From assembly GCA_963790305.1 (NCBI GenBank), contig CAWBOC010000009.1, positions 800,001-864,000 of the forward strand: DNA of 64,000 nt, given 5' to 3'. Origin of the DNA: an uncultured Gemmatimonadaceae bacterium (lineage in GTDB: Bacteria > Gemmatimonadota > Gemmatimonadetes > Gemmatimonadales > Gemmatimonadaceae). A model generated the notes under the pieces. It did no database searches, was not told where the DNA came from, and was given only the letters and a program-made list of their open reading frames with translations. This document shows positions 6,915 to 58,923 of the stretch, one piece after another. Position 1 is the first letter of the stretch. The number at the start of each line of letters is the position of its first letter. A program made the position numbers and the translations under genes.

Positions 6915-6952
6915 TGACGTGCGTCCTCCCTGGATCCTTTTAGTCTCAAACT

Positions 6953-7077
6953 AGGGTCAGGAGTCAGGAGTCAGGAGTCAGGGGGGATCAGGGAGTGGGT
7001 TACAGGAGAGAACGACCTCGCTCCTGACACCTCGACCCTGACACCCCCTGATCCCTGACTCCTGACTCCTGATCCCT
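6953..7077. repeat. Inverted tandem-repeat element, family A (TCAGGAG)n...(CTCCTGA)n, copy A1
   Basis: Heptamer arms in inverted orientation around a spacer containing AGGAGAG. Confidence 0.9.
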
Positions 7078-7082
7078 GTTTT

Positions 7083-18163: not shown

Positions 18164-18252
18164 AAGGGCGCTAGGGGCGCTAAGGGCGCTAGGAGCGCTA
18201 ATGTGGTTAGGGTTTCAGCGCCCTTAGCGCCCCCAGCGCCCTTAGCGCCCTA
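18164..18252. repeat. Inverted tandem-repeat element, family D (AAGGGCGCT)n...(AGCGCCCTT)n
   Basis: 9-mer arms filling the space between the TamA-like and tamB genes. Confidence 0.9.
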
Positions 18253-23440: not shown

Positions 23441-23565
23441 AGGGGTCAGGAGTCAGGAATCAGCGGTCAGGGGGTGTCAGGGTGAAGGTTCGAGGAGAGA
23501 GCTCGCGCGATTCACAACCTCTTCCCTGACACCCCCTGATCGCTGACTCCTGACTCCTGACCCCT
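23441..23565. repeat. Family A element, copy A2
   Basis: GGGGTCAGGAGTCAGG...CCTGACTCCTGACCCC between the binding-protein and permease genes. Confidence 0.9.
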
Positions 23566-23567
23566 AG

Positions 23568-24489
23568 ATGCTCTCCTTCGTCGCTCGCCGGCTCCTCCTC
23601 GCGATTCCCACGCTGTTCGGCGTTCTCGTCGTCGTCTTCCTGCTCCTGTACATCGCGCCGGGTGATCCGGTGATGGGAGATGGTCGGCGAGCGCGCGGAC
23701 GCCGAGACCATCGCGCGGCTGCGCGCGGAGCTGCGGCTCGACGATCCCGTTCCGGTGCAGTTCGCGCACTACGCCGGAGGAGTGCTCAAGGGCGACCTCG
23801 GAACATCCTACATCACCGGGCGGCCGATCGCGCGCGACATCCTCGAGCGGTTCCCCAAGACGTTGCAGCTTGCCACCGCCGCGATGCTGCTCGCCGCATC
23901 GCTCGGCATCACCATCGGCGTACTCAGCGCGCGACGGCCGGGCAGCACGTTCGACCGCCTGGCAATGGGCGGTGCCTACCTCGGCATTTCGTTCCCGGTC
24001 TACTGGGTGGGGTTGATCCTCATCCTCGTGTTCGCGGTGTCGCTGCGCTGGCTTCCGCCGTCCGGGTTTGGACGCATCGAGTATCTCGTCCTTCCCGCGC
24101 TTGCGTTAGGCACGCGGTCGATCGCCTTTCTCGCCCGCATGACGCGGTCGGCGATGCTGGAGGTGCTGGGCAGCGACTTCATTCGAACCGCGCGCGCCAA
24201 GGGGTTGCGCGAGCGGGTCGTGCTGGGGCGCCACGCGCTCCGCAATGCGCTCATCCCCATCATCACGGTGCTCGGCCTCGACTTCGGCTACTACCTCACC
24301 GGGAGCATCCTGACCGAGACGATCTTCTCGTGGCCCGGGATCGGTCGCTATGTAGTCAACGCCATCGCGCGCCGCGATCTCCCCGCGATTCAGGGCAGCG
24401 TCCTCTTCTTGAGCGTCGTCTTCGTGCTCGTCAACCTCGTCACCGATCTGCTCTACGCGAAGGCGGATCCACGGGTGCGGTACGACTGA
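23568..24489 (+). CDS. Peptide ABC permease (DppB/OppB); +1 frameshift near 23676
   Basis: RRLLLAIPTL...PGDPV N-terminus joins ORF 23680..24489 (TARAKGL, HALRNALIP, DPRVRY) if one G is removed. Confidence 0.88.
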
Positions 24490-24493
24490 ATTT

Positions 24494-24620
24494 GGGGTCA
24501 GGAGTCAGGAGTCAGGGGTCAGGGGTGTCAGGGTTGGGGTGTCAGCAGAAGTACACGCAGTTCTCTCCTGCAACCCATACCCTGACACCCCCTGACCCCT
24601 GACTCCTGACCCCTGACCCC
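24494..24620. repeat. Family A element, copy A3 (spacer in opposite orientation)
   Basis: Same arms; the spacer reverse-complements to GGGTATGGGTTGCAGGAGAGAA. Confidence 0.9.
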
Positions 24621-24624
24621 GAGT

Positions 24625-25650
24625 TCAGACGCCGGCCTCTTCCTTTACGCCGAAGACGGCCATGTGTGACGAGTGGCCCGGATTCACCTTCTTGTCCGGG
24701 TAGATCCAGTGCACGGCCTGGTTCACGGCGATTGCCGCTTCCGAGTAGCCGGTCGCAATCAGCTTCAGCTTCCCGGGATACGTCGTGATGTCACCCGCCG
24801 CCCAGATTCCCTGGCGGCCAGTCTCCATCGCGCTATTCACGACGATCTCGTCCTTCTCGAGACTGAGCCCCCACTCCGCCATCGTGCCGAGGTCGCTCAC
24901 GAAGCCGAGCATCGGCAGAATCGCATCGCAGTCGATCGCGACGGTGGTCTTGGCCTTGATGTCCTTGAGCACCACACCGGAGAGATTCTCGCCATTGCCG
25001 GTGATGTCCTGCAGCTCGTGGAAGGTGAGCATCCGCGCCCGCCCCTCTGCGGACGCCGCGCGAATCTCTTCGACGGTTGCCGCATGCGCGCGAAAGCGGT
25101 CGCTGCGGTGCGCGAGCGTGACTGACGAGGCGCGATCGAGCAGCTGATGCGCCCAGTCGAACGCCGAGTCACCGCCGCCGATGATGAGCACCTGCTTGCC
25201 ACGGAACCGCTCGGGATCGAGCACCCGATCGTGAATGCCCTTGCCGTACCAGGGCTCGGCGCACGGCTGCGGAAGCCGGCGCGGCGAGAACGCCCCGATG
25301 CCGGCGGCGATCACGATGGCCTTCGTCGGAAACCGGTCCGTTTCGGTGACCAGCGTGAAGGTCCCGCCGTCCTCCTCGAGGGAGACGACGCGCTGATCGA
25401 AATGCATGGGTGCGCCGAACTGCTTTGCCTGCTCGAGCTGCCCCGCCACGAGGTCCTTCGCCAGCACCCGAGGAAACCCCGCGACGTCAAAGATGTACTT
25501 CTCTGGGTAGAGGGCGGTCAGCTGACCCCCGGGTTCGGACAGCGCGTCGATGACCTGCGCGGAGACTCCGCGCATGCCTGCGTAGAAAAGGGCGAACAGT
25601 CCCGTGGGGCCGGCGCCCAAAATGGTGATGTCTTTAGGGTCGTGCTGCAT
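24625..25650 (-). CDS. Thioredoxin-reductase-like ferredoxin-NADP+ reductase (YumC type)
   Basis: GAGPTG, GGQLTALYPEKYIFDVAGF, GGGDSA, YPGKLKLI, PGHSS; no CxxC. Confidence 0.88.
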   Translation of the reverse strand: MQHDPKDITILGAGPTGLFALFYAGMRGVSAQVIDALSEPGGQLTALYPEKYIFDVAGFPRVLAKDLVAGQLEQAKQFGAPMHFDQRVVSLEEDGGTFTLVTETDRFPTKAIVIAAGIGAFSPRRLPQPCAEPWYGKGIHDRVLDPERFRGKQVLIIGGGDSAFDWAHQLLDRASSVTLAHRSDRFRAHAATVEEIRAASAEGRARMLTFHELQDITGNGENLSGVVLKDIKAKTTVAIDCDAILPMLGFVSDLGTMAEWGLSLEKDEIVVNSAMETGRQGIWAAGDITTYPGKLKLIATGYSEAAIAVNQAVHWIYPDKKVNPGHSSHMAVFGVKEEAGV

Positions 25651-27526: not shown

Positions 27527-27632
27527 GCGAATGCGGATTGCGGAATGCGGATTCGATGCATGCCAAGATGATTCCAACGTGTCGCGAGGCATCCCGACGT
27601 CCCAGAATCCGCATTCCGCAGTCCGCATTCGT
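27527..27632. repeat. Family B element, copy B2
   Basis: GAATGCGGATTGCGGAATGCGGATTC...GAATCCGCATTCCGCAGTCCGCATTC. Confidence 0.9.
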
Positions 27633-28998: not shown

Positions 28999-29142
28999 TA
29001 GGGGTCAGGAGTCAGGAGTCAGGGGTCAGGGAAGGAAAGGCGCGGCAGCTTCGCTGCCGCGCTCATCGGATGAGGGCCGCTGGCGCGAAGCGCCGCGGCC
29101 CCTTTCCTTCCCCGACCCCTGACTCCTGACTCCAGACCCCTA
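28999..29142. repeat. Family A element, copy A4, with a three-hairpin interior
   Basis: TAGGGGTCAGGAGTCAGG...CTCCAGACCCCTA arms enclosing three internal palindromes. Confidence 0.9.
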
Positions 29143-30680: not shown

Positions 30681-31564
30681 CCGCCACCAGTCTTCCGCTG
30701 CTCATCAACGCCTCCGCGCCGCGCGCGCGAGAGGTGACCGAGGCCGTCCACAAGAGCGGGCTCTCGATCGAGGCGCGCGAGCTGCCCGCCGGGGAGCTGG
30801 GGCGCACGATCGAGGAGCTGGCGAAGAACGGCGTTAGGCGCGTGGCCGTCGCTGGGGGAGACGGCACCATTGCGATCGCTGCCGGCCTCGCGTCGAAGCT
30901 CTCCTTCGAGCTCGCCGTGATCCCGGGTGGAACGCTCAACCACCTTGCCACCGACCTCGGCATCCCGGACTCGCTCGAGGAGGCGCTGCGCGTGGCGATC
31001 ACCGGAGATGCACGACCGATCGACGCCGCCACCGTGAATGGCCAGCTCTTTCTGAACACCAGCTCGGTCGGCACGTACGTCACATTCGTCCGCATGCGGG
31101 ACCGCCTCGAGCGCTACCTTGGCTACCGGATTGCGAGCCTCGTGGCGGGCATTCGTCTCCTCCTTCGTCCGCGACTCTTCACCGTCGAGGTCGAGGTCGA
31201 AGGCCAAATGCGATCCGCCGTGACACCCCTCGTGTTCATCGGCGTCGGCGAGCGCGAGCTGAAGCTCCCGACACTCGGCGGCCGCGCGAAAGACGGCCGG
31301 CGTGGATTGCACCTGATGATCGTTCGCGGTCGATCCCCCGCGCGAATAGCGGCGCTGGCCTTCGCCGCGGCGGCACGCGGAACGCGATCTGCCGCGCAGA
31401 GTCCCGCACTCGACGCGTTCGTGGTAAATCGACTGACGATTCGAATGCGCCGCCCCCGAGGAAACGTCGCGACCAATGGCGAGCTTCACGCGATGTCGAG
31501 TCCGCTCGAGTATCGGTGGGTGCCGGGCGCGGTGAAGGTGGTACACCCGAGGTCGTCGAAGTAG
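30677..31564 (+). CDS. Diacylglycerol kinase-family protein (second copy); start probably upstream of 30734
   Basis: GGDGT, PGGTLNH; in-frame upstream LPLLINASA strand begins at CTG 30677. Confidence 0.8.
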   Translation: MTATSLPLLINASAPRAREVTEAVHKSGLSIEARELPAGELGRTIEELAKNGVRRVAVAGGDGTIAIAAGLASKLSFELAVIPGGTLNHLATDLGIPDSLEEALRVAITGDARPIDAATVNGQLFLNTSSVGTYVTFVRMRDRLERYLGYRIASLVAGIRLLLRPRLFTVEVEVEGQMRSAVTPLVFIGVGERELKLPTLGGRAKDGRRGLHLMIVRGRSPARIAALAFAAAARGTRSAAQSPALDAFVVNRLTIRMRRPRGNVATNGELHAMSSPLEYRWVPGAVKVVHPRSSK

Positions 31565-31670
31565 TCGAGGTCGTCGAGGTGAGCAAGGGAACGTCGTCGC
31601 CTCGATTACCTCGACGACCTCGACACCCTCGACGACCTCACATTGACCACCTCGAGCACCTCGAGCACCT
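31548..31670. repeat. Family C element, copy C2
   Basis: GAGGTCGTCGAAGTAGTCGAGGTCGTCGAGG...CCTCGACGACCTCGACACCCTCGACGACCTC; supplies the kinase stop codon. Confidence 0.88.
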
Positions 31671-36211: not shown

Positions 36212-36362
36212 TGCAGAATGCAGAATGCAGAATGCGGAATGCGGAATGCGGATTACAAATGTGGACTGCCAGTCGCGAAGCAGCTTGACGTGCTCCGCTC
36301 GCAGTGCGCACTCGCGTTCCGGATTCCGGATTCCGGATTCCGCATTCCGCATCCCGCATTCG
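36212..36362. repeat. Family B element, copy B3
   Basis: (GCAGAAT)3(GCGGAAT)2 ... (TTCCGGA)3 TTCCGCATTCCGCAT. Confidence 0.9.
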
Positions 36363-39458: not shown

Positions 39459-40937
39459 GTGCGCCTGAGCGCGCTCGCCGGCGCGCTCGGTGTGCCTCTT
39501 TCGGGGGCCGATCGGGAGATTACGGGCATTGCGCTCGACTCCCGCCAAGTGCAGCCGGGTCAACTCTTTGTCGCGATTCCCGGCGCCAATGCCGACGGAA
39601 CGCGCTTCATCCCCGACGCCCTCGCGCGCGGCGCCGTGGCGGTGTGCGCGGTACGCGCGTGGGATACCGTGCCCACGCTCGTCGTCCCCGATCCACGTGA
39701 GGCGCTCGCCCGCCTGGCGAGCGAATTCCACGGACATCCCGCACGCGACCTTCGCATGATCGGGATTACCGGATCGCTCGGGAAGACGTCTACTGCGCTC
39801 CTGCTCGAAACGATCGTCGGGACCGCGGGCGAGAAAGTCGGCGTCATCGGCTCGCTCGGGATTCGGTTCGAGGGCCACGTCGTCGAGACGGGAATGACGA
39901 CCCCCGAGGCCCCCTCCATCCATGGCTCGCTGCGCTACTTCGCGGCGCAAGGTGCGGGCACCGCGGTCATGGAGGTGACGTCGCACTCGATTCTGCTCAA
40001 GCGCGTCGACGGACTTCAGTACGACCTTGGCCTCCTGACGAACATCGTCCCGTACGAGCACCTCGAGTTCCATCCCACTCCCGAGCATTACGTCCGCACG
40101 AAGACGCGCTTCTTCGGCATGCTCAAGCCGGGCGCACCGCTCGTCGTCAACGACGACGATCCCACCGCCCGCGAGGTGAGCACCGGTCTCGATCGACCGG
40201 TCATCGGCGTTTCGCTTCGCGCGCGGGCGAGCGCGGCAGTGCACGTGGAGCGCGTTCGCATGGGGGTCGAGGGCTCGACGTTCGCGCTGCAAGTGCGGCG
40301 CCCGCTGCCGATGCTGGACGGCGGAGAGGTCGCCGCGCAGACGATTCCGCTGGCGCTTCCGATCCTTGGTCGGCAGCAGGTGGCAAACGCGGCTCTGGCG
40401 GCAACGGCCGCTCTCATCGCTGGCATTCCCGCCGAGACGATCGCGTTCGCGCTCACCGACGTGGAGCCAATGCACCGCCGCATGCACATCTTCTACGAGG
40501 ATGGGCCGGTGGTGATCGACGACACCGTCGGGAATCCGGAGAGCATCCGCGCCGTCTTCGAGGCCATCCGCTCGATCCCGCATCACAACCTCCGCGTCGC
40601 GTACGCGATTCGCGGCTCGCGTGGGACGGAGGTCAACGAGCGGAACGCCGAGGCGCTCGCGCGAGAGATCGAGCCGATCATCGCGACGCTGGTCGTGACC
40701 TCGAGCGAGGATCACGCGAGCGAGCGCGATCGCGTCGAGGACGATGAGCGTGAGGCGGTCCTGAAGACACTGGAGGCTCGTGGAGTGCCCTTCATCTACG
40801 AGCCGACGCTCGAGGGAGCAGTCACCCGTGCGCTACAGGACGCGGCTCGCGGGGATCTCGTCGCCCTTCTCGGCGCTCAGGGGATGGACAAGGGAGCAGA
40901 GATCGCGCGGAAGCTGCTGCCGCCGCCGGTGGATTAG
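39459..40937 (+). CDS. Mur ligase family protein (MurE-like, divergent)
   Basis: DSRQV, ITGSLGKTST, TTPE, MEVTSH; lacks DYAH and DNPR motifs. Confidence 0.85.
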   Translation: MRLSALAGALGVPLSGADREITGIALDSRQVQPGQLFVAIPGANADGTRFIPDALARGAVAVCAVRAWDTVPTLVVPDPREALARLASEFHGHPARDLRMIGITGSLGKTSTALLLETIVGTAGEKVGVIGSLGIRFEGHVVETGMTTPEAPSIHGSLRYFAAQGAGTAVMEVTSHSILLKRVDGLQYDLGLLTNIVPYEHLEFHPTPEHYVRTKTRFFGMLKPGAPLVVNDDDPTAREVSTGLDRPVIGVSLRARASAAVHVERVRMGVEGSTFALQVRRPLPMLDGGEVAAQTIPLALPILGRQQVANAALAATAALIAGIPAETIAFALTDVEPMHRRMHIFYEDGPVVIDDTVGNPESIRAVFEAIRSIPHHNLRVAYAIRGSRGTEVNERNAEALAREIEPIIATLVVTSSEDHASERDRVEDDEREAVLKTLEARGVPFIYEPTLEGAVTRALQDAARGDLVALLGAQGMDKGAEIARKLLPPPVD

Positions 40938-41056
40938 GGGTCAGGAGTCAGGGATCGGGGGGGCTCAGGGTGGAGGTTCGAGGAGAGACGCTCGCGCACT
41001 CCTGGAACCACTTCCCTGACACCCCCTGACTCCTGACTCCTGACTCCTGATCCCTA
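40935..41056. repeat. Family A element, copy A5
   Basis: Starts in the Mur ligase TAG; spacer very similar to that of A2. Confidence 0.9.
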
Positions 41057-41068
41057 TATTGTTCAGCT

Positions 41069-43159
41069 ATGGCTCCGACCATCGTCCGAGCGGCCTGCCC
41101 CCACGATTGCCCGGATACCTGCGCAATGCTGGTGACCGTCGAGGACGGCCGCGCCACCAAGGTCGCCGGCGATCCCGACCACCCCTTCACGCAGGGATTT
41201 CTCTGCACGAAGGTCAATCGCTACCTCGAGCGCACCTATCACCCCGAGCGTTTGCTTCGCCCGATGCGTCGCATCGGCCGCAAGGGAGACGGCCGCTTCG
41301 AGCCGATCTCGTGGGATGACGCCCTCGACGAGATTGCCGAGCGCCTGACGAGCATCGCGGGCTCGCCGGACGGTCCGCAGGCGATTCTGCCGTACTCGTA
41401 CGCGGGCACGATGGGCTACGTGCAGAGCGCATCGATGGACCGGCGCTTTTTCCATCTGCTCGGCGCCTCGAAGCTCGATCGCACCATCTGCTCGATGGCC
41501 GGCACGGTCGGGATGCGGATGACGGTCGGTGCGAACATTGGCGCGGACGGTGAAGGGCTGCCCGAGAGCGATTTCGTCCTCTTGTGGGGGACCAACACGC
41601 TCACGTCGAATCCGCACCTGTGGCCGTTCGTCCTTCAGGCACGCGCGAACGGGGCGTCGATCATCGCGATCGATCCGCTTCGCACGCGCACCGCCGCCCA
41701 GTGCGACGAATGGTTCGGCATTCGGCCCGGCACCGACGCGGCGCTCGCGCTGGGCATGATGCACGTGCTGTTCGCGGAGGGGATGGAGGACCAGGAGTTT
41801 CTGACGAACTACACGCTCGGTGAAGAGCTGCTGCGCGAGCGCGTCCGCGAGTACTCTCCGGCGCGCGTCGCGTCGATCACCGGCCTCGAGGAAGCACGCA
41901 TCATCGGCCTCGCCCTGCGGTACGGTCACTCGCGCGCGGCGTTCATTCGCGTCAACTACGGGCTGCAGCGGCACAAGGGCGGCGGAATGGCCGTCCGTAC
42001 GATCGCGTGCCTTCCCGCGGTCGTCGGGCATTGGCGCCGTCCGGGTGGCGGCGTCCAGCTGTCCACCAGCGCGAACTTCCAGTTCGACAAGAACACGCTC
42101 GAGCGCCCCGACCTCTCACCGCCGGTGCGCACGATCAACATGATCCGGCTCGGAGAGGCGCTGACGACACCGAATGCGGGCGTCGGCGGGCCGCCGGTAC
42201 GGGCGATGGTCGTATACAACTCGAACCCCGCCGCGGTCGCGCCCGATCGCAACGCGGTGATGCGCGGATTCGCGCGCGACGACCTGTTCACGGTGGTGCT
42301 CGACCACTTTCAGACGGACACCGCCGACTGGGCCGACATCGTGTTGCCCGCGACGACGCAGCTCGAGCACTGGGACATTCACTTCGCGTACGGTCACCAC
42401 TACGTCACGCTGAACCGACCGTCGATCGCCCCGCTCGGCGAAGCGAAGCCCAACTCCGAGATCTTCCGCCTGCTCGCCGCACGCATGGGAATGCATCACC
42501 CCGCTCTCCGCGACGACGATCTCACGCTCATCCATCAGGCGATCGAGGGCGCGACACCAGGCGCGTGGAACGCGGAGAAGCTGCGCGGCGTGACGCTCGA
42601 CGAGCTGCTCGAGCGCGGATGGATGCGTCTCAACGTGCCGAAGCCGTACCTGCCATTCGGGAACGGCGAGTTCCTCACGCCCAGCGGCAAGTGCGAGTTC
42701 TATTCGGAGCGGATGAAGGAGATGGGACTCGACCCCCTTCCCTCGTTCACGGCGCCTTACGAGTTCCCGGAGGAGGCTCCGGAGCTCGCGTCACGCTTCC
42801 CGCTCACGTTGATCTCCTCCCCCGCGCACCAGTTCCTGAACTCGACGTTCGTGAACATCGGCGCCCTCCGCCGCGCCGCCCGCGAGCCGGAGCTGATGAT
42901 CCACCCGAGCGACGCCGAGCCGCGCGGCATCGCCACCGGCATGCGTGTGGTGGTGCATAACGATCGCGGCGAGTTCACCGCCGTGGCCCGCGTCGACGAA
43001 TCGGTCCGCGAAACGGTGGTGTGGGCCCCGTCGATCTGGTGGGCGAAGTACGCCGCCGACGGCCAGAACGCGAACGCCACCACTTCCCAGCTCGAGACGG
43101 ACATGGGGCATGGTCCCGTGTTCTACGACAATCTGGTGGAGGTGATGGCGGCGGATTGA
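41069..43159 (+). CDS. Molybdopterin-dependent oxidoreductase (cytoplasmic, DMSO reductase superfamily)
   Basis: CPHDCPDTC...LCTK Fe-S motif, IRPGTDAAL, ADIVLPAT, C-terminal molydop-binding domain. Confidence 0.9.
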   Translation: MAPTIVRAACPHDCPDTCAMLVTVEDGRATKVAGDPDHPFTQGFLCTKVNRYLERTYHPERLLRPMRRIGRKGDGRFEPISWDDALDEIAERLTSIAGSPDGPQAILPYSYAGTMGYVQSASMDRRFFHLLGASKLDRTICSMAGTVGMRMTVGANIGADGEGLPESDFVLLWGTNTLTSNPHLWPFVLQARANGASIIAIDPLRTRTAAQCDEWFGIRPGTDAALALGMMHVLFAEGMEDQEFLTNYTLGEELLRERVREYSPARVASITGLEEARIIGLALRYGHSRAAFIRVNYGLQRHKGGGMAVRTIACLPAVVGHWRRPGGGVQLSTSANFQFDKNTLERPDLSPPVRTINMIRLGEALTTPNAGVGGPPVRAMVVYNSNPAAVAPDRNAVMRGFARDDLFTVVLDHFQTDTADWADIVLPATTQLEHWDIHFAYGHHYVTLNRPSIAPLGEAKPNSEIFRLLAARMGMHHPALRDDDLTLIHQAIEGATPGAWNAEKLRGVTLDELLERGWMRLNVPKPYLPFGNGEFLTPSGKCEFYSERMKEMGLDPLPSFTAPYEFPEEAPELASRFPLTLISSPAHQFLNSTFVNIGALRRAAREPELMIHPSDAEPRGIATGMRVVVHNDRGEFTAVARVDESVRETVVWAPSIWWAKYAADGQNANATTSQLETDMGHGPVFYDNLVEVMAAD

Positions 43160-43177
43160 TGGTGTGCGCCACGGTCT

Positions 43178-43648
43178 TGGAACCGCAGATTGCCGCAGAT
43201 GGCCGCAGAGACGGTTCCTCCTGGCGATCGAGATCCTTACCGCCACGCTGGCATCACCAGGAAGCTGTTGGATTGCTTCTTTGATGTCTACCACGAGCTT
43301 GGCCTTGGCTTTCTCGAGGCAGTTTATTCCAATGCGTTCGCGATTGCGTTGACGCAAGCCGAAATCTCGTTTCGACGAGAATTCGATGTACCGGTGTTCT
43401 TCCGGGGGATTCCCATAGGCGCCTACAAGGCGGATTTCCTCATCGCCGACGACATCATTGTCGAGTTGAAGGCTGCACGAGCCATCGACCCAGTTCACAT
43501 CGCCCAGCTTGTCAACTACCTGCGTGGTTCCAAGGTCGAGTTGGGGTACATCCTGAATTTCGGTCCAAAGCCGTCATACAAGCGCTTTATTTTCTCCAAC
43601 GCACGCAAGAACAGTTGCGGCCATCTGCGGCCATCTGCGGTTCCATAG
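43178..43648. mobile_element. Putative element: GxxExxY gene bounded by 30-bp inverted arms of tandem CCGCAGATGG units
   Basis: 43178-43207 and 43616-43645 are reverse complements at 29/30 positions. Confidence 0.6.
43199..43648 (+). CDS. GxxExxY protein (PD-(D/E)xK nuclease superfamily, PDDEXK_3-like)
   Basis: GFLEAVY motif, ADFL, IVELKA, AQLVNYL, ILNFG; more AT-rich than its neighbours. Confidence 0.92.
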   Translation: MAAETVPPGDRDPYRHAGITRKLLDCFFDVYHELGLGFLEAVYSNAFAIALTQAEISFRREFDVPVFFRGIPIGAYKADFLIADDIIVELKAARAIDPVHIAQLVNYLRGSKVELGYILNFGPKPSYKRFIFSNARKNSCGHLRPSAVP

Positions 43649-43707
43649 CACTGGCGCGAATAAGTACGCCCGGCCATCCTGAGTAACGACTCAAAACGGA
43701 GCAGACG

Positions 43708-45180
43708 TTGTCGAGCAAGCAGCACCCCACAACACTCGGCGCCCTCAAGCGCTCACCCTACGCCGCACGCGCCAAGCGCACCGTCAAGGACGAGCTGCGC
43801 GAGAATCTTCTCGAGCGGCTGGCGCGCGGCGGGCCGCTGTTCGAGGGCGTCGTTGGCTATGAAGACACCGTTCTTCCGCAGCTGGTCAACGCCATTCTCG
43901 CCAAGCACAATTTCATCCTCCTCGGGCTGCGCGGGCAGGCCAAGTCGCGCATTCTGCGGTCGCTCGTCACGCTGCTCGATGACGCCATTCCCATCGTCGC
44001 CGGGAGCGAGATCAACGACGATCCGTTCGCGCCGATCTCGAAGCAGGCGAGCCAGGTGATCGAGGAGGCGGGAGACGACACGCCCATCGCGTGGATCGGA
44101 CGCGACCAGCGCTACGTCGAGAAGCTCGCTACCCCCGACGTCACCATCGCCGACATCATCGGCGACGTCGATCCCATCAAGGCTGCGCGCGGCGGACATG
44201 TGCTGTCGGACGAGCTCACCATCCACTACGGCATGCTGCCGCGCGCCAATCGCGGCATCTTCGCGCTCAACGAGCTTCCCGATCTCGCCGGCAAGATCCA
44301 GGTGGGATTGTTCAACATCATGCAGGAAGGCGACGTCCAGATCAAAGGCTATCCCATCCGCATCCCGCTCGATGTGCTCCTCTGCTTCACCGCCAACCCC
44401 GAGGATTACACCGCGCGCGGGAAGATCATCACGCCGCTCAAGGATCGCATCGGAAGCGAGATTGCGACGCACTATCCGGAGTCGGTCGAAGTCGGGATGG
44501 AGATCACGCAGCAGGAGGCGTGGACCGCTCGCGGCTCTCTTCCCGTGCGTGTCCCGGACTTCATCGCCGAGGTCGTCGAGCGCGTCGCCTTCGAGGCACG
44601 CACCGACAAGCGCGTCGACAAGCGCTCCGGCGTCTCACAGCGCATGCCGATAACGGTTCTCGAGAGCGTCGTGTCGAACGCCGAGCGGCGCGCCGTCGAG
44701 CGGCGCGAGTGCACGGTCGTGCCGCGCGTGTCGGACATCTACGCGGCGCTGCCGTCGATCACCGGCAAGATCGAGCTCGAGTACGAGGGCGAGCTCATCG
44801 GAGGACAGGTCATCGCGCGTGAGCTGATTCGTCGCGCTGCCGACGCGACGTTCCAGTCGAGAGCAGGCGGCTCCGATACCGACGAGATCGTGATGTGGTT
44901 CGACACGGGGAACGCGCTCGAGGTGCCCGACGACGCCGCCAGCGAGCCGCTGTCGCAGGCCTTCGAGGATGTCCCGACGCTTCTCGATCTCGTGCATGGC
45001 GTCGGGCTCGCATCGCAGGGCGATACCGAGATGACCGTCGCGGCGTGCGAGCTCGTGCTCGAAGCGCTGGTCGGGCGTCGAAAGATCTCGCGCTCCGACG
45101 CCGGACGGTACGGTCGCGCTCAGCCGCCCGAGCGCCGCCGGCCGAACGATCTCTTCGGCGGCGGTGGCATGACCGCCTAG
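43708..45180 (+). CDS. Mg-chelatase/MoxR-like AAA+ ATPase
   Basis: GLRGQAKS, EKLATPD, PRANRGIFALNELPDL, TANPEDYT. Confidence 0.85.
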   Translation: MSSKQHPTTLGALKRSPYAARAKRTVKDELRENLLERLARGGPLFEGVVGYEDTVLPQLVNAILAKHNFILLGLRGQAKSRILRSLVTLLDDAIPIVAGSEINDDPFAPISKQASQVIEEAGDDTPIAWIGRDQRYVEKLATPDVTIADIIGDVDPIKAARGGHVLSDELTIHYGMLPRANRGIFALNELPDLAGKIQVGLFNIMQEGDVQIKGYPIRIPLDVLLCFTANPEDYTARGKIITPLKDRIGSEIATHYPESVEVGMEITQQEAWTARGSLPVRVPDFIAEVVERVAFEARTDKRVDKRSGVSQRMPITVLESVVSNAERRAVERRECTVVPRVSDIYAALPSITGKIELEYEGELIGGQVIARELIRRAADATFQSRAGGSDTDEIVMWFDTGNALEVPDDAASEPLSQAFEDVPTLLDLVHGVGLASQGDTEMTVAACELVLEALVGRRKISRSDAGRYGRAQPPERRRPNDLFGGGGMTA

Positions 45181-46391: not shown

Positions 46392-46739
46392 ATGCGCCGC
46401 TTTCTCGTAATCCCCGCCGTCATCGGCGTGCTATCGGGCTGCACCTCGTTCCGTCTGGTACAGGCAAACGAGCCCCTTCCCCCGCACGCGACGGTGGCGA
46501 TTACCTTCGACGAGCCGCGGAACCTCGACGCTCGGCGCAACTCGACGGTGTACTCCCTCCGCGAGGTCAGCACGGTGTACGGCGAGCTCGAGGACGTTCG
46601 GTCGGACACTCTGGTGCTTCGCGTCCTCAGCATCGAGTCGAGCCGACGCCAGCCGCGCCTCCCCGCTGAGGCACGGCTTGCGGTCGTGCCGGGCGCGTCG
46701 GCCCAGCTTTCGACGAGCGGAGTTTCCGAGCAGAGGTGA
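46392..46739 (+). CDS. Hypothetical lipoprotein, paralogue 1 (lacks the C-terminal helix)
   Basis: Lipobox LSGC; aligns by eye with 48732 and 49648. Confidence 0.75.
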   Translation: MRRFLVIPAVIGVLSGCTSFRLVQANEPLPPHATVAITFDEPRNLDARRNSTVYSLREVSTVYGELEDVRSDTLVLRVLSIESSRRQPRLPAEARLAVVPGASAQLSTSGVSEQR

Positions 46740-48731: not shown

Positions 48732-49154
48732 ATGCGAAAGACACTCGCTGTCGTGGGCTCGATTACCGTGCTGACGAGCTGCATCAGCTACTACCCGGTA
48801 CAGCCGGGCGAACAGCCCGAACCGGCGTCGACGGTAACGGTGACGTTCGCGTCGCCGCGCGACCTCGAGGCCATGCACGACACGGTGGTGTACGCCCTTC
48901 CCGCCGTCGACAGGGTCCATGGCGAGATGCAATACTCGATCGGCGACACCCTCCTGCTCCGCGTGCTGCTGGTCGAGTCGAACCAACAGCAGCCAGAGCT
49001 TCCGGCCGGCGCCCGCCTAGCGCTGTTTCGCGACGCGTCAACCCGCGTCGCCATGCGCGGTACATCTCCCGGAAAGACGATCGGACTTCTGGCCTTGACC
49101 CTCGTGGGAGTGCTGGCGATCGGTTTGGCGACCGACCCTGTACCGAGCTACTAA
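48732..49154 (+). CDS. Hypothetical lipoprotein, paralogue 2
   Basis: Lipobox LTSC, TFASPRDLEA, C-terminal hydrophobic helix. Confidence 0.8.
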   Translation: MRKTLAVVGSITVLTSCISYYPVQPGEQPEPASTVTVTFASPRDLEAMHDTVVYALPAVDRVHGEMQYSIGDTLLLRVLLVESNQQQPELPAGARLALFRDASTRVAMRGTSPGKTIGLLALTLVGVLAIGLATDPVPSY

Positions 49155-50859: not shown

Positions 50860-51031
50860 GGCTTCTCCACGTGAACGTGAAGGCCCTCACGGGCCACCCA
50901 GTGGATTCTTCACGTTCGGAGGTAGCCTCGTCCAGTGCTCCCGTGTCAGGATTGCTTCAAGATCGCTGTGCGCGGAGATGGTCTCGACCGCTTCGGCGCT
51001 GGCCGCGGGCGAAAGGAAGCAAAGCGTTTCT

Positions 51032-51142
51032 TGAACGCAGAGGACGCGGAGGTACGCAGAGGAACTTTAACTGCGAGTGCTTTGTGGAAAATGCTCCCGC
51101 AGTTGACGTTTCCTCTGCGTACCTCCGCGTCCTCTGCGTTCA
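51032..51142. repeat. Perfect 33-bp inverted repeat of ACGCAGAGG-type units (cargo-less element)
   Basis: TGAACGCAGAGGACGCGGAGGTACGCAGAGGAA at 51032-51064 with its exact reverse complement at 51110-51142. Confidence 0.92.
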
Positions 51143-51296
51143 CAAAAACTCACTCAGATCAATCCTGGCGAGCCGCACCTTCTGCCCCGTCCTCGCCTGA
51201 TCCCCTACCTAACGCGGGACGACTACTACGTACGATGGCGTATTTCGCTCCCTCGCCGGATGCCCGATTGTATCGGTGTCAGGACAAGAGGGGCTC

Positions 51297-58833: not shown

Positions 58834-58923
58834 GAGTGGAGAGTGAGAGTGGAGAGTGGAGAGTGGAGAGTGAGGAGTGATACGAATTTCTCACTCTTCA
58901 CTCCCTACTCTCCACTCTCCACT
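58834..58923. repeat. Inverted tandem-repeat element, family E (GAGAGTG)n...(CACTCTC)n
   Basis: Heptamer arms between divergent genes. Confidence 0.88.

What the first reader, a model, noticed from the sequence alone, without database searches (positions are those of the whole stretch)
43178..43648. GxxExxY nuclease gene sealed between inverted tandem-repeat arms: candidate autonomous member of an undescribed element system
Seen: TGGAACCGCAGATTGCCGCAGATGGCCGCA (43178-43207) and its reverse complement (43616-43645, 29/30 match), each made of three 10-bp-period CCGCAGA units. The ORF starts inside the left arm and ends with a TAG immediately after the right arm, so the element is just arms plus gene. 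It is more AT-rich than the host genes and sits between two unrelated co-directional genes. Flanking GCGCCA/TGGCGC extends the stem imperfectly, and no target-site duplication is visible. Known: GxxExxY proteins are PD-(D/E)xK-fold proteins of unknown function, not recognised transposases. Inference: the nuclease recognises or propagates these hairpin elements, analogous to RAYT/REPIN but with a different enzyme.
Basis: partly seen in the sequence, partly recalled or inferred. Interest (0 to 1): 0.82.

Follow-up and report, generated by a model that had tools for sequence, protein, structure and literature searches.

The report
Swappable nuclease gene in hairpin repeats
A small nuclease-like gene sits between mirror-image repeat arms that also mark gene-less hairpins scattered through the genome, and near-identical strains carry different gene-plus-arm versions at this same spot, which points to an apparently undescribed gene-and-repeat system of mobile DNA whose enzyme activity is still unproven.

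Summary
Observation confirmed: 29/30 inverted arms of 10-bp-period CCGCAGA units enclose an intact GxxExxY (PD-(D/E)xK-fold) gene with conserved catalytic residues and pN far below pS. The same arm forms six or seven gene-less intergenic hairpins elsewhere in the genome. One such hairpin in a relative is a clean 221-nt insertion absent from 5 of 5 other genomes, with no clear target duplication. 37 of 52 GxxExxY loci have inverted arms, against 3 of 398 control ORFs. The gene does not behave as a self-copying transposon: it is single-copy and faithful to its site, but is swapped there. Hosts identical at 848/850 and 122/122 flanking bases carry different nuclease-plus-arm alleles. All 31 scored four-helix-bundle (IVS/Avd-like) genes share the architecture, and in this genome their arms also form gene-less hairpins, so the nuclease may not be the mobiliser. 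It works like RAYT-REPIN but is not a member (no HUH transposase, tandem rather than palindromic arms, tree incongruent with host). I found no description in eight literature searches. The scan noted this class before on other DNA (at least 30 unchecked notes).

The parts
43178..43209 (+). Left arm: short leader plus three CCGCAGA units at 10-bp period; contains the likely start codon
43199..43648 (+). GxxExxY / PDDEXK_3 nuclease-fold gene, 149 aa from the ATG in the arm (152 aa from TTG 43190); E43, D82, E92, K94 conserved; both arms are partly translated
43616..43645 (-). Right arm, inverted copy (29/30), followed directly by the TAG stop
43160..43702 (.). Approximate exchangeable block: the whole oxidoreductase-ATPase intergenic slot, which differs as a block between near-identical hosts (boundaries transferred from L136 vs L137)
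43651..43658 (+). CTGGCGCG motif kept by alleles with unrelated arms; host flank of the slot, function unknown
41069..43159 (+). Upstream host gene, molybdopterin oxidoreductase; its stop codon marks the left edge of the slot
43708..45180 (+). Downstream host gene, ChlI/MoxR-like AAA ATPase (below NCBIfam cut-offs)

Best explanation
This is the gene-bearing copy of one family in a two-part gene-and-repeat system. A single-copy small nuclease gene is boxed by its own inverted tandem arms, and a dispersed population of gene-less hairpins carries the same arms. Shown: the geometry, the paired gene-less population, an intact nuclease-type active site under purifying selection, new insertion of gene-less hairpins, their bias to positions just after stop codons, their nesting in the loops of older hairpins, and repeated replacement of the gene-plus-arm allele at a fixed slot. 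Inferred, not shown: (1) the protein, probably as an oligomer, binds its three helically phased units in duplex, cruciform or fold-back DNA; (2) it nicks or cuts a variable distance outside the arms; (3) host repair (end joining, for which Ku is present, or recombination) pastes the fragment at another break, since this fold is not known to join DNA. That would explain the missing target duplication, the copy-specific flanks and the lack of near-identical copies. (4) Breaks at the slot promote exchange of the whole block between strains by recombination in the conserved flanking genes.
For: All four GxxExxY paralogues of the genome have different arms, and each arm type has gene-less copies: families A 7 pairs (with the gene), B 35, C 14, D 21 (motif census, approximate). 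Inverted-repeat score >=30 in 37 of 52 scored GxxExxY loci against 3 of 398 control ORFs. D82, E92 and K94 are kept in 119, 120 and 119 of 120 homologues. The model (pLDDT 85.8) has a restriction-endonuclease-like fold; Foldseek's best hit is Cas4 SSO0001 at E 3e-4, with Hjc and lambda exonuclease next. pN 0.096 against pS 0.77 to the closest allele. A 221-nt family-A hairpin in G006 is absent from 5 of 5 other genomes at the site. Of 288 intergenic hairpins, 109 lie between convergent and 32 between divergent genes, against 285 and 482 of 2072 gaps >=60 nt; in co-directional gaps the median distance after the stop is 11 nt. L136 and L137 match at 848/850 and 122/122 in the flanking genes but carry different nucleases and arms. 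Hosts of the A allele are rejected as one clade, p-AU 2e-58. No G.U-on-sense bias in stems, 190 vs 186, as expected for DNA-level symmetry. No RAYT, reverse transcriptase or IS110 found in the 94%-complete genome. Two Ku genes.
Against: No biochemical evidence. The same layout surrounds 6 of 6 four-helix-bundle genes here and 25 of 25 scored in the genus, so the architecture does not need this nuclease. G005 has nine four-helix-bundle matches and such hairpins but no GxxExxY match (89% complete). A-type arms persist in G002 (8) and G004 (12), where no A-type gene was found (81% and 90% complete), though they are nearly or wholly missing in G005 (2) and G003 (0). 15 of 52 GxxExxY loci fall under the arm threshold. 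The link between arm type and protein clade rests largely on orthologous loci, which are not independent. No recent near-identical duplicates exist, so present activity is not shown. Only one clean empty site was found among nine sites. A few rve-family transposase matches exist in the genome.
Confidence: 0.45

Rival explanations
1. The arms are the mobile unit, moved by a shared enzyme not yet identified (a host repair protein, or one cargo protein acting in trans). GxxExxY and four-helix-bundle genes are both repeat-binding adaptors or captured cargo that give specificity or simply ride along.
For: Two unrelated small proteins share the architecture; six four-helix-bundle genes have their own 6-9-nt-period arms and gene-less hairpins. 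Hairpins of different families replace and nest in one another at the same sites: of 48 orthologous junctions scored at nine family-A sites, 14 hold family A, 16 another hairpin and 18 fall below threshold (3 more not scored). G005 lacks a GxxExxY match.
Against: The nuclease active site is strictly conserved, which a mere adaptor would not need. GxxExxY arms share a C[ACG]C[AG][AG]A hexamer, 323 inward-facing against 175 outward, that the four-helix-bundle arms mostly lack on inspection. No candidate shared transposase of the RAYT, RT or IS110 type was found.
Confidence: 0.27
2. A domesticated RNA-level system. The hairpins are 3'-UTR or intercistronic mRNA structures, and the protein binds or cleaves the repeats in RNA, or RNase III excises the gene-bearing stem as it does rRNA intervening sequences.
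For: Hairpins sit right after stop codons and avoid divergent promoter regions. Sites tend to stay occupied by some hairpin across species. The four-helix-bundle cargo is the family known from 23S rRNA IVSs (PMC4990558). In 3 of 12 alleles the gene is in frame with the ATG overlapping the oxidoreductase stop.
Against: No excess of G.U pairs on the sense strand (190 vs 186, p 0.88). No Rfam match in 7 loci. The position bias is equally explained by survival of harmless insertions. The family at a site turns over quickly.
Confidence: 0.16
3. A free-standing homing-type nuclease. It cuts rival alleles at its slot and spreads by gene conversion; the arms are its recognition or immunity sites, and the dispersed hairpins are by-products.
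For: Allele replacement between near-identical hosts with intact flanks; near-identical nucleases in hosts that do not form a clade (G002 and L134); site fidelity of close homologues, judged from read-through tails (about 22 of 38 by eye). Precedent: T4 mobE (PMC2790892, abstract).
Against: It does not explain the many gene-less hairpins or the four-helix-bundle families. No empty allele exists in the genus to home into (13 of 13 filled). Plain homologous recombination between conserved flanks explains the swaps without a nuclease. No co-converted mismatch in the last 129 nt of the oxidoreductase.
Confidence: 0.12

Closest known systems
RAYT-REPIN system (bioRxiv 10.1101/2021.07.10.451892, passages read)
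   Same: Single-copy chromosomal enzyme gene flanked by its own repeat and kept in one extragenic slot; about 100-200-bp extragenic inverted doublets with variable spacer; several gene-repeat families per genome; nearly absent from plasmids and phages (8 of 72,556 plasmid records, 0 of 50,697 phage records).
   Different: Enzyme is PD-(D/E)xK-fold, not HUH/tyrosine. Arms are tandem direct units, not short palindromes. The gene lies inside one inverted pair. The allele tree is incongruent with the host tree, whereas RAYTs are described as vertically inherited. A second, non-nuclease cargo family shares the layout.
ORF-bearing intervening sequences of 23S rRNA (S23p / PF05635; PMC4990558, passages read)
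   Same: A small gene in the loop of a roughly 30-bp terminal stem, lower GC, sporadic and horizontally moved; the genome's other cargo family is the same Pfam family.
   Different: Not in rRNA; intergenic between protein genes; arms built of tandem units; has dispersed gene-less copies; no sign of RNA-level pairing selection; cargo here is a nuclease fold.
Insertion sequences with MITEs
   Same: Terminal inverted repeats around one ORF, with short non-coding copies sharing the ends.
   Different: No DDE, HUH or IS110 transposase fold; no fixed ends or clear target duplication at the one clean empty site; no multi-copy near-identical elements; gene stays at one slot.
Free-standing homing endonucleases (T4 mobE; PMC2790892, abstract and outline read)
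   Same: Promoterless small nuclease gene between two conserved co-transcribed genes, exchanged as an allele.
   Different: Single small domain with no separate DNA-binding domain; inverted tandem arms and satellite hairpins; chromosomal rather than phage; homing not shown.
PDDEXK_3 / GxxExxY family (PF13366, TIGR04256; PMC3424549 table row read)
   Same: It is a member; that paper lists function 'Unknown' and notes multiple transfers.
   Different: The passages seen do not mention flanking arms or associated repeats.

Membership tests
GxxExxY / PDDEXK_3 | Score above curated HMM cut-offs | tested here: met
   TIGR04256 115 bits (cut-off 35), PF13366 121 bits (cut-off 22)
GxxExxY / PDDEXK_3 | GxxExxY motif and D...ExK catalytic residues on a restriction-endonuclease-like fold | tested here: met
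   G40-E43-Y46, D82, E92, K94 conserved; fold matches (best VIA Z 7.5, rmsd 2.5, 85 aligned; none >=8)
GxxExxY / PDDEXK_3 | Nuclease activity | not testable with these tools
   No solved sequence relative at E<=1; activity inferred from fold and residues only
RAYT-REPIN | HUH/Y1 tyrosine transposase | tested here: not met
   Protein matches only PF13366/TIGR04256; no Y1_Tnp match in the genome, 94% complete
RAYT-REPIN | Each repeat defined by a short (~14 bp) internal palindrome | tested here: not met
   Arms are direct tandem units and pair with the opposite arm in the folds, by inspection
RAYT-REPIN | Extragenic inverted doublets with variable spacer, many per genome | tested here: met
   (288 intergenic, 11 inside ORF calls)
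RAYT-REPIN | Single-copy gene flanked by its own repeat, rare on plasmids | tested here: met
RAYT-REPIN | Gene phylogeny congruent with host | tested here: not met
   Allele types rejected as host clades, p-AU 2e-58, 0.006, 2e-5; within-population swap
IS / MITE | Recognised transposase in the full-length copy | tested here: not met
IS / MITE | Target-site duplication and fixed ends | tested here: inconclusive
   One clean empty site only; at most a 3-nt direct repeat, insertion extends about 35 and 26 nt beyond the arms
IS / MITE | Several near-identical copies | tested here: not met
   Best nearest-neighbour score 0.56 in family A and at most 0.83 in the others, apart from one pair inside a 5.7-kb duplication
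rRNA intervening sequence | Located in an rRNA gene | tested here: not met
   Between two protein genes; no Rfam match
rRNA intervening sequence | Terminal inverted repeats enclosing an ORF | tested here: met
rRNA intervening sequence | Excision from RNA by RNase III | not testable with these tools
   Only contigs of relatives were available
Free-standing homing endonuclease | Cuts alleles lacking it and is inherited with bias | not testable with these tools
   Needs assay or crosses
Free-standing homing endonuclease | Allelic exchange at a cognate site | tested here: inconclusive
   Exchange seen but its direction and driver are unknown

The most novel reading that the evidence does not exclude
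A class of bacterial mobile DNA with no conventional transposase: small single-domain proteins from two unrelated folds (a PD-(D/E)xK nuclease and an IVS/Avd-like four-helix bundle) each read their own 6-10-nt tandem code in fold-back arms. The nuclease cuts, host repair pastes, and about ten competing gene-repeat families share, nest in and evict one another from the same 3'-intergenic slots, while the gene-bearing copies are traded between strains as cassettes. This would give GxxExxY proteins a function, suggest an origin for ORF-bearing rRNA intervening sequences, and offer a roughly 130-aa nuclease scaffold with many natural specificities.
Probability: 0.35. Interest if true: 0.92.

Novelty: categorically new. 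Interest (0 to 1): 0.78.

Why it matters
About 300 hairpins in this one genome, some 7-8% of its roughly 3,900 gene junctions, belong to families each paired with a small gene of unknown function. GxxExxY matches occur in 42 of 121 genomes sampled across the phylum. If the nuclease mobilises its arms, this is a second, independent solution to the RAYT-REPIN way of life using a different chemistry. It assigns a testable substrate to a widespread orphan nuclease family and links it to the long-unexplained IVS four-helix-bundle proteins. Natural allele series at one slot (A, A2, CCACGG types) supply matched protein-arm pairs for a direct specificity-swap assay.

Tried and rejected
Self-copying transposon: rejected; single copy per gene type, slot-faithful, no near-identical copies. 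Retro-element route: no RVT_1 match in the genome. RAYT or IS110 as mobiliser: no match; genome 94% complete. RNA-stem selection: no G.U bias in any gene context. Ongoing self-symmetrisation of arms: one search suggested it (flanks outside A arms 0.60 within vs 0.39 between elements, n=7), but a stricter test found the own partner better than the best other arm in only 1 of 6 family-A copies and in a majority only in family B (20 of 35), so I do not claim it. Homodimer prediction gave no answer, which is evidence neither way. The search for related loci on genome contigs gave only 2 loci. Sequencing runs held at most 0.15 of the words; laying four of them gave only relatives, one joint skipping 43165-43624 with unknown letters between, and one RNA contig over the oxidoreductase end and left arm, none usable as evidence. 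Longer homologues show fusions to unrelated proteins and no consistent partner (52 hits among 8000 scored). PADLOC gave only weak matches, E>=0.01. No sigma-70 promoter found; one terminator-like site, at chance level. My automatic occupancy label undercounts degenerate hairpins (three at scores 32-35 were called 'none'). The premature stop in G006's allele is not reliable as decay, because the near-identical L137 has an intact codon. A sigma-54 reading of CTGGCGCG (consensus recalled) fits poorly and was dropped.

Full report
Observation. The window is G000:C9:800001-864000. The two arms match 29/30, the ORF begins in the left arm, its TAG follows the right arm, and the element is 55% GC against 66-67% for its neighbours. 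Chance is excluded: 0.00 expected pattern matches and folding z -7.17. The protein is a GxxExxY/PDDEXK_3 member. D82, E92 and K94 are nearly invariant in 120 homologues. The model is confident (pLDDT 85.8) and restriction-endonuclease-like. Closest folds are Cas4 SSO0001, Hjc and lambda exonuclease, but no match stands out (best VIA Z 7.5). Against the nearest allele pN is 0.096 and pS 0.77. The low codon bias of the gene makes pS hard to compare with host genes, but the protein is clearly constrained.

The arm has a gene-less population. The same arm occurs as short inverted pairs of 90-203 nt at C1:81398, C3:131922, C5:699664, C9:109018, C9:294631 and C10:238847, a variant at C5:3224, and a few single or decayed arms. 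The three other GxxExxY paralogues (about 32% identical; one frameshifted, one at a contig edge) each have different arms. Across 61 loci fetched from the genus and phylum plus the G020 locus, 52 could be scored (9 truncated or partial, 1 without a hit). 37 of 52 have an inverted-repeat score >=30, against 3 of 398 long control ORFs of G000. Arm type follows protein clade within the genus, but most of those rows are orthologous loci, so this is not an independent test of co-evolution.

The genome is full of such hairpins. A 16-bp-seed scan found 347 inverted repeats under 700 nt (output partly cut). A motif census sorted about 300 pairs into 11 arm families (motifs chosen by me, gene calls from a simple hexamer model, so counts are approximate). 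Four families match the four GxxExxY genes. Six match the six four-helix-bundle (PF05635) genes, all of which also sit between inverted tandem arms, as do 25 of 25 scored in relatives (1 truncated). One family has no cargo gene found in G000, though its arm flanks four-helix-bundle genes in G002, G003 and G007. Hairpins are intergenic (288, against 11 inside ORF calls), enriched between convergent genes (109/288 against 285/2072), depleted between divergent genes (32/288 against 482/2072), and lie a median 11 nt after the upstream stop. Stems show no G.U bias on the sense strand (190 vs 186).

Are gene-less copies mobile? At nine family-A sites compared across the genus, 48 junctions were scored: 14 hold family A, 16 another hairpin, 18 fall below threshold; 3 could not be scored. 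Sites were chosen for having family A in one genome, and kin are not independent. Newer families often sit in the loop of older ones. One site is clean: a 221-nt family-A hairpin in G006 is missing in G001, G000, G004, G008 and G002. The insert reaches about 35 and 26 nt beyond the arms and has at most an ambiguous 3-nt direct repeat. No two copies in G000 are near-identical, so spread is slow, imprecise, or both. Exact A-arm counts are 13, 30, 24, 10 and 19 in the five genomes with the A gene, and 8, 12, 2 and 0 in the four where it was not found (71-100% complete). That is only a partial dependence.

Is the gene mobile? Not as a transposon. In the genus the oxidoreductase-ATPase slot is filled in all 8 other genomes and all 5 metagenome contigs. 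Four genomes and two contigs share type A, three alleles carry a CCACGG-arm nuclease (about 50% identical), two a third type, and two a gene-less hairpin. Of 8 published genomes from other genera with both flanks, one (G020) has a GxxExxY with related arms and most have a short gap without the gene (unpublished G015 left out). Allele type conflicts with the host tree built from the flanking genes: p-AU 2e-58, 0.006 and 2e-5 for the three types, 8 changes on 15 rows (several rows partial). L136 and L137 are identical at 848/850 oxidoreductase and 122/122 ATPase bases, yet differ across the whole block from 7 nt after the stop to just before the ATPase start. A double chimeric assembly is possible but unlikely. 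About 22 of 38 close homologues show, by eye, read-through tails matching this slot's right flank. The family is nearly absent from plasmids and absent from phages in the collections searched.

Mechanism. My best reading (0.45) is that the nuclease recognises its helically phased units and cuts near the fold-back, and that host repair inserts the piece (two Ku genes; that this fold lacks joining chemistry is my own knowledge). Breaks at the slot would favour allele exchange. Every enzymatic step is inference. The strongest rival (0.27) is a shared mobiliser with both cargo families as adaptors or passengers, because the four-helix-bundle families need no GxxExxY gene of their own and G005 shows them without one. 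An RNA-level role (0.16) and pure homing (0.12) fit less of the data. No RAYT, reverse transcriptase or IS110 was found; four rve matches were.

Comparison and novelty. It works like RAYT-REPIN but fails three defining features (enzyme, palindromic REP units, host-congruent inheritance). It resembles ORF-bearing rRNA IVSs in shape but is not in rRNA. Eight literature searches found no description: 'GxxExxY' occurs in 3 papers (2 listed), one an RT tool paper (one passage read) and one an algal virus genome (listing only). Read in passages: PMC3424549, 10.1101/2021.07.10.451892, PMC4990558. Abstract and outline only: PMC2790892. All others were seen as listings. No supplements were consulted, and subscription journals are largely outside the library, so a prior description cannot be excluded. 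The scan's own unchecked notes report this class at least 30 times on other genomes and the four-helix-bundle version once in this genome. A search of those notes for allele replacement returned nothing; the within-population swap and the clean empty site are what this locus adds.

Verdict. A real, apparently undescribed gene-and-repeat system with good comparative support for mobility of the hairpins and exchange of the gene, and no direct evidence yet that the nuclease does the moving. Interest 0.78.

Noticed in passing
window 6948-7081, 18164-18250, 23441-23565, 24483-24631, 27528-27631, 28999-29142, 31519-31669, 36223-36361, 40931-41053, 51027-51147, 58845-58923: Eleven more long hairpins in this window, nearly all with tandem arms of other families; the one at 40931-41053 lies directly before the oxidoreductase gene.
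   Followed up: partly
G000 C7:167475, C5:70659, C9:163389, C7:228030, C9:787754, C10:203511: Six four-helix-bundle (23S_rRNA_IVP, Avd-like) genes outside rRNA, each between its own inverted tandem arms that also form gene-less hairpins.
   Followed up: yes
L083, L084, L086, L087, L125, L126, L147, L148: Several gene-less hairpins share an internal core of about 40 nt, even across different arm families; no Rfam match. It may be a remnant of an older element or a functional core.
   Followed up: no
L029, L031, L032, L054, L058: A second layout: the GxxExxY gene lies between two complete hairpins rather than inside one pair.
   Followed up: no
G000 C10:30880-31630 and C13:3530-4260: Hairpins at the 5' end of ordinary genes appear to be read in frame as N-terminal extensions; GxxExxY also appears fused to LepA, RecG, kinases and others.
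   Followed up: no
G000 C9:294614-294817 versus L120: About 17 nt of flank is present as a perfect inverted copy on both sides in G000 but only on the left in G008, a possible template-switch footprint.
   Followed up: partly
G000 C5:741837-742145: The D-family GxxExxY gene is frameshifted near its start, yet about 20 D hairpins remain.
   Followed up: no
window 46392-46739 and 48732-49154: Two related small lipoprotein-like ORFs close together.
   Followed up: no
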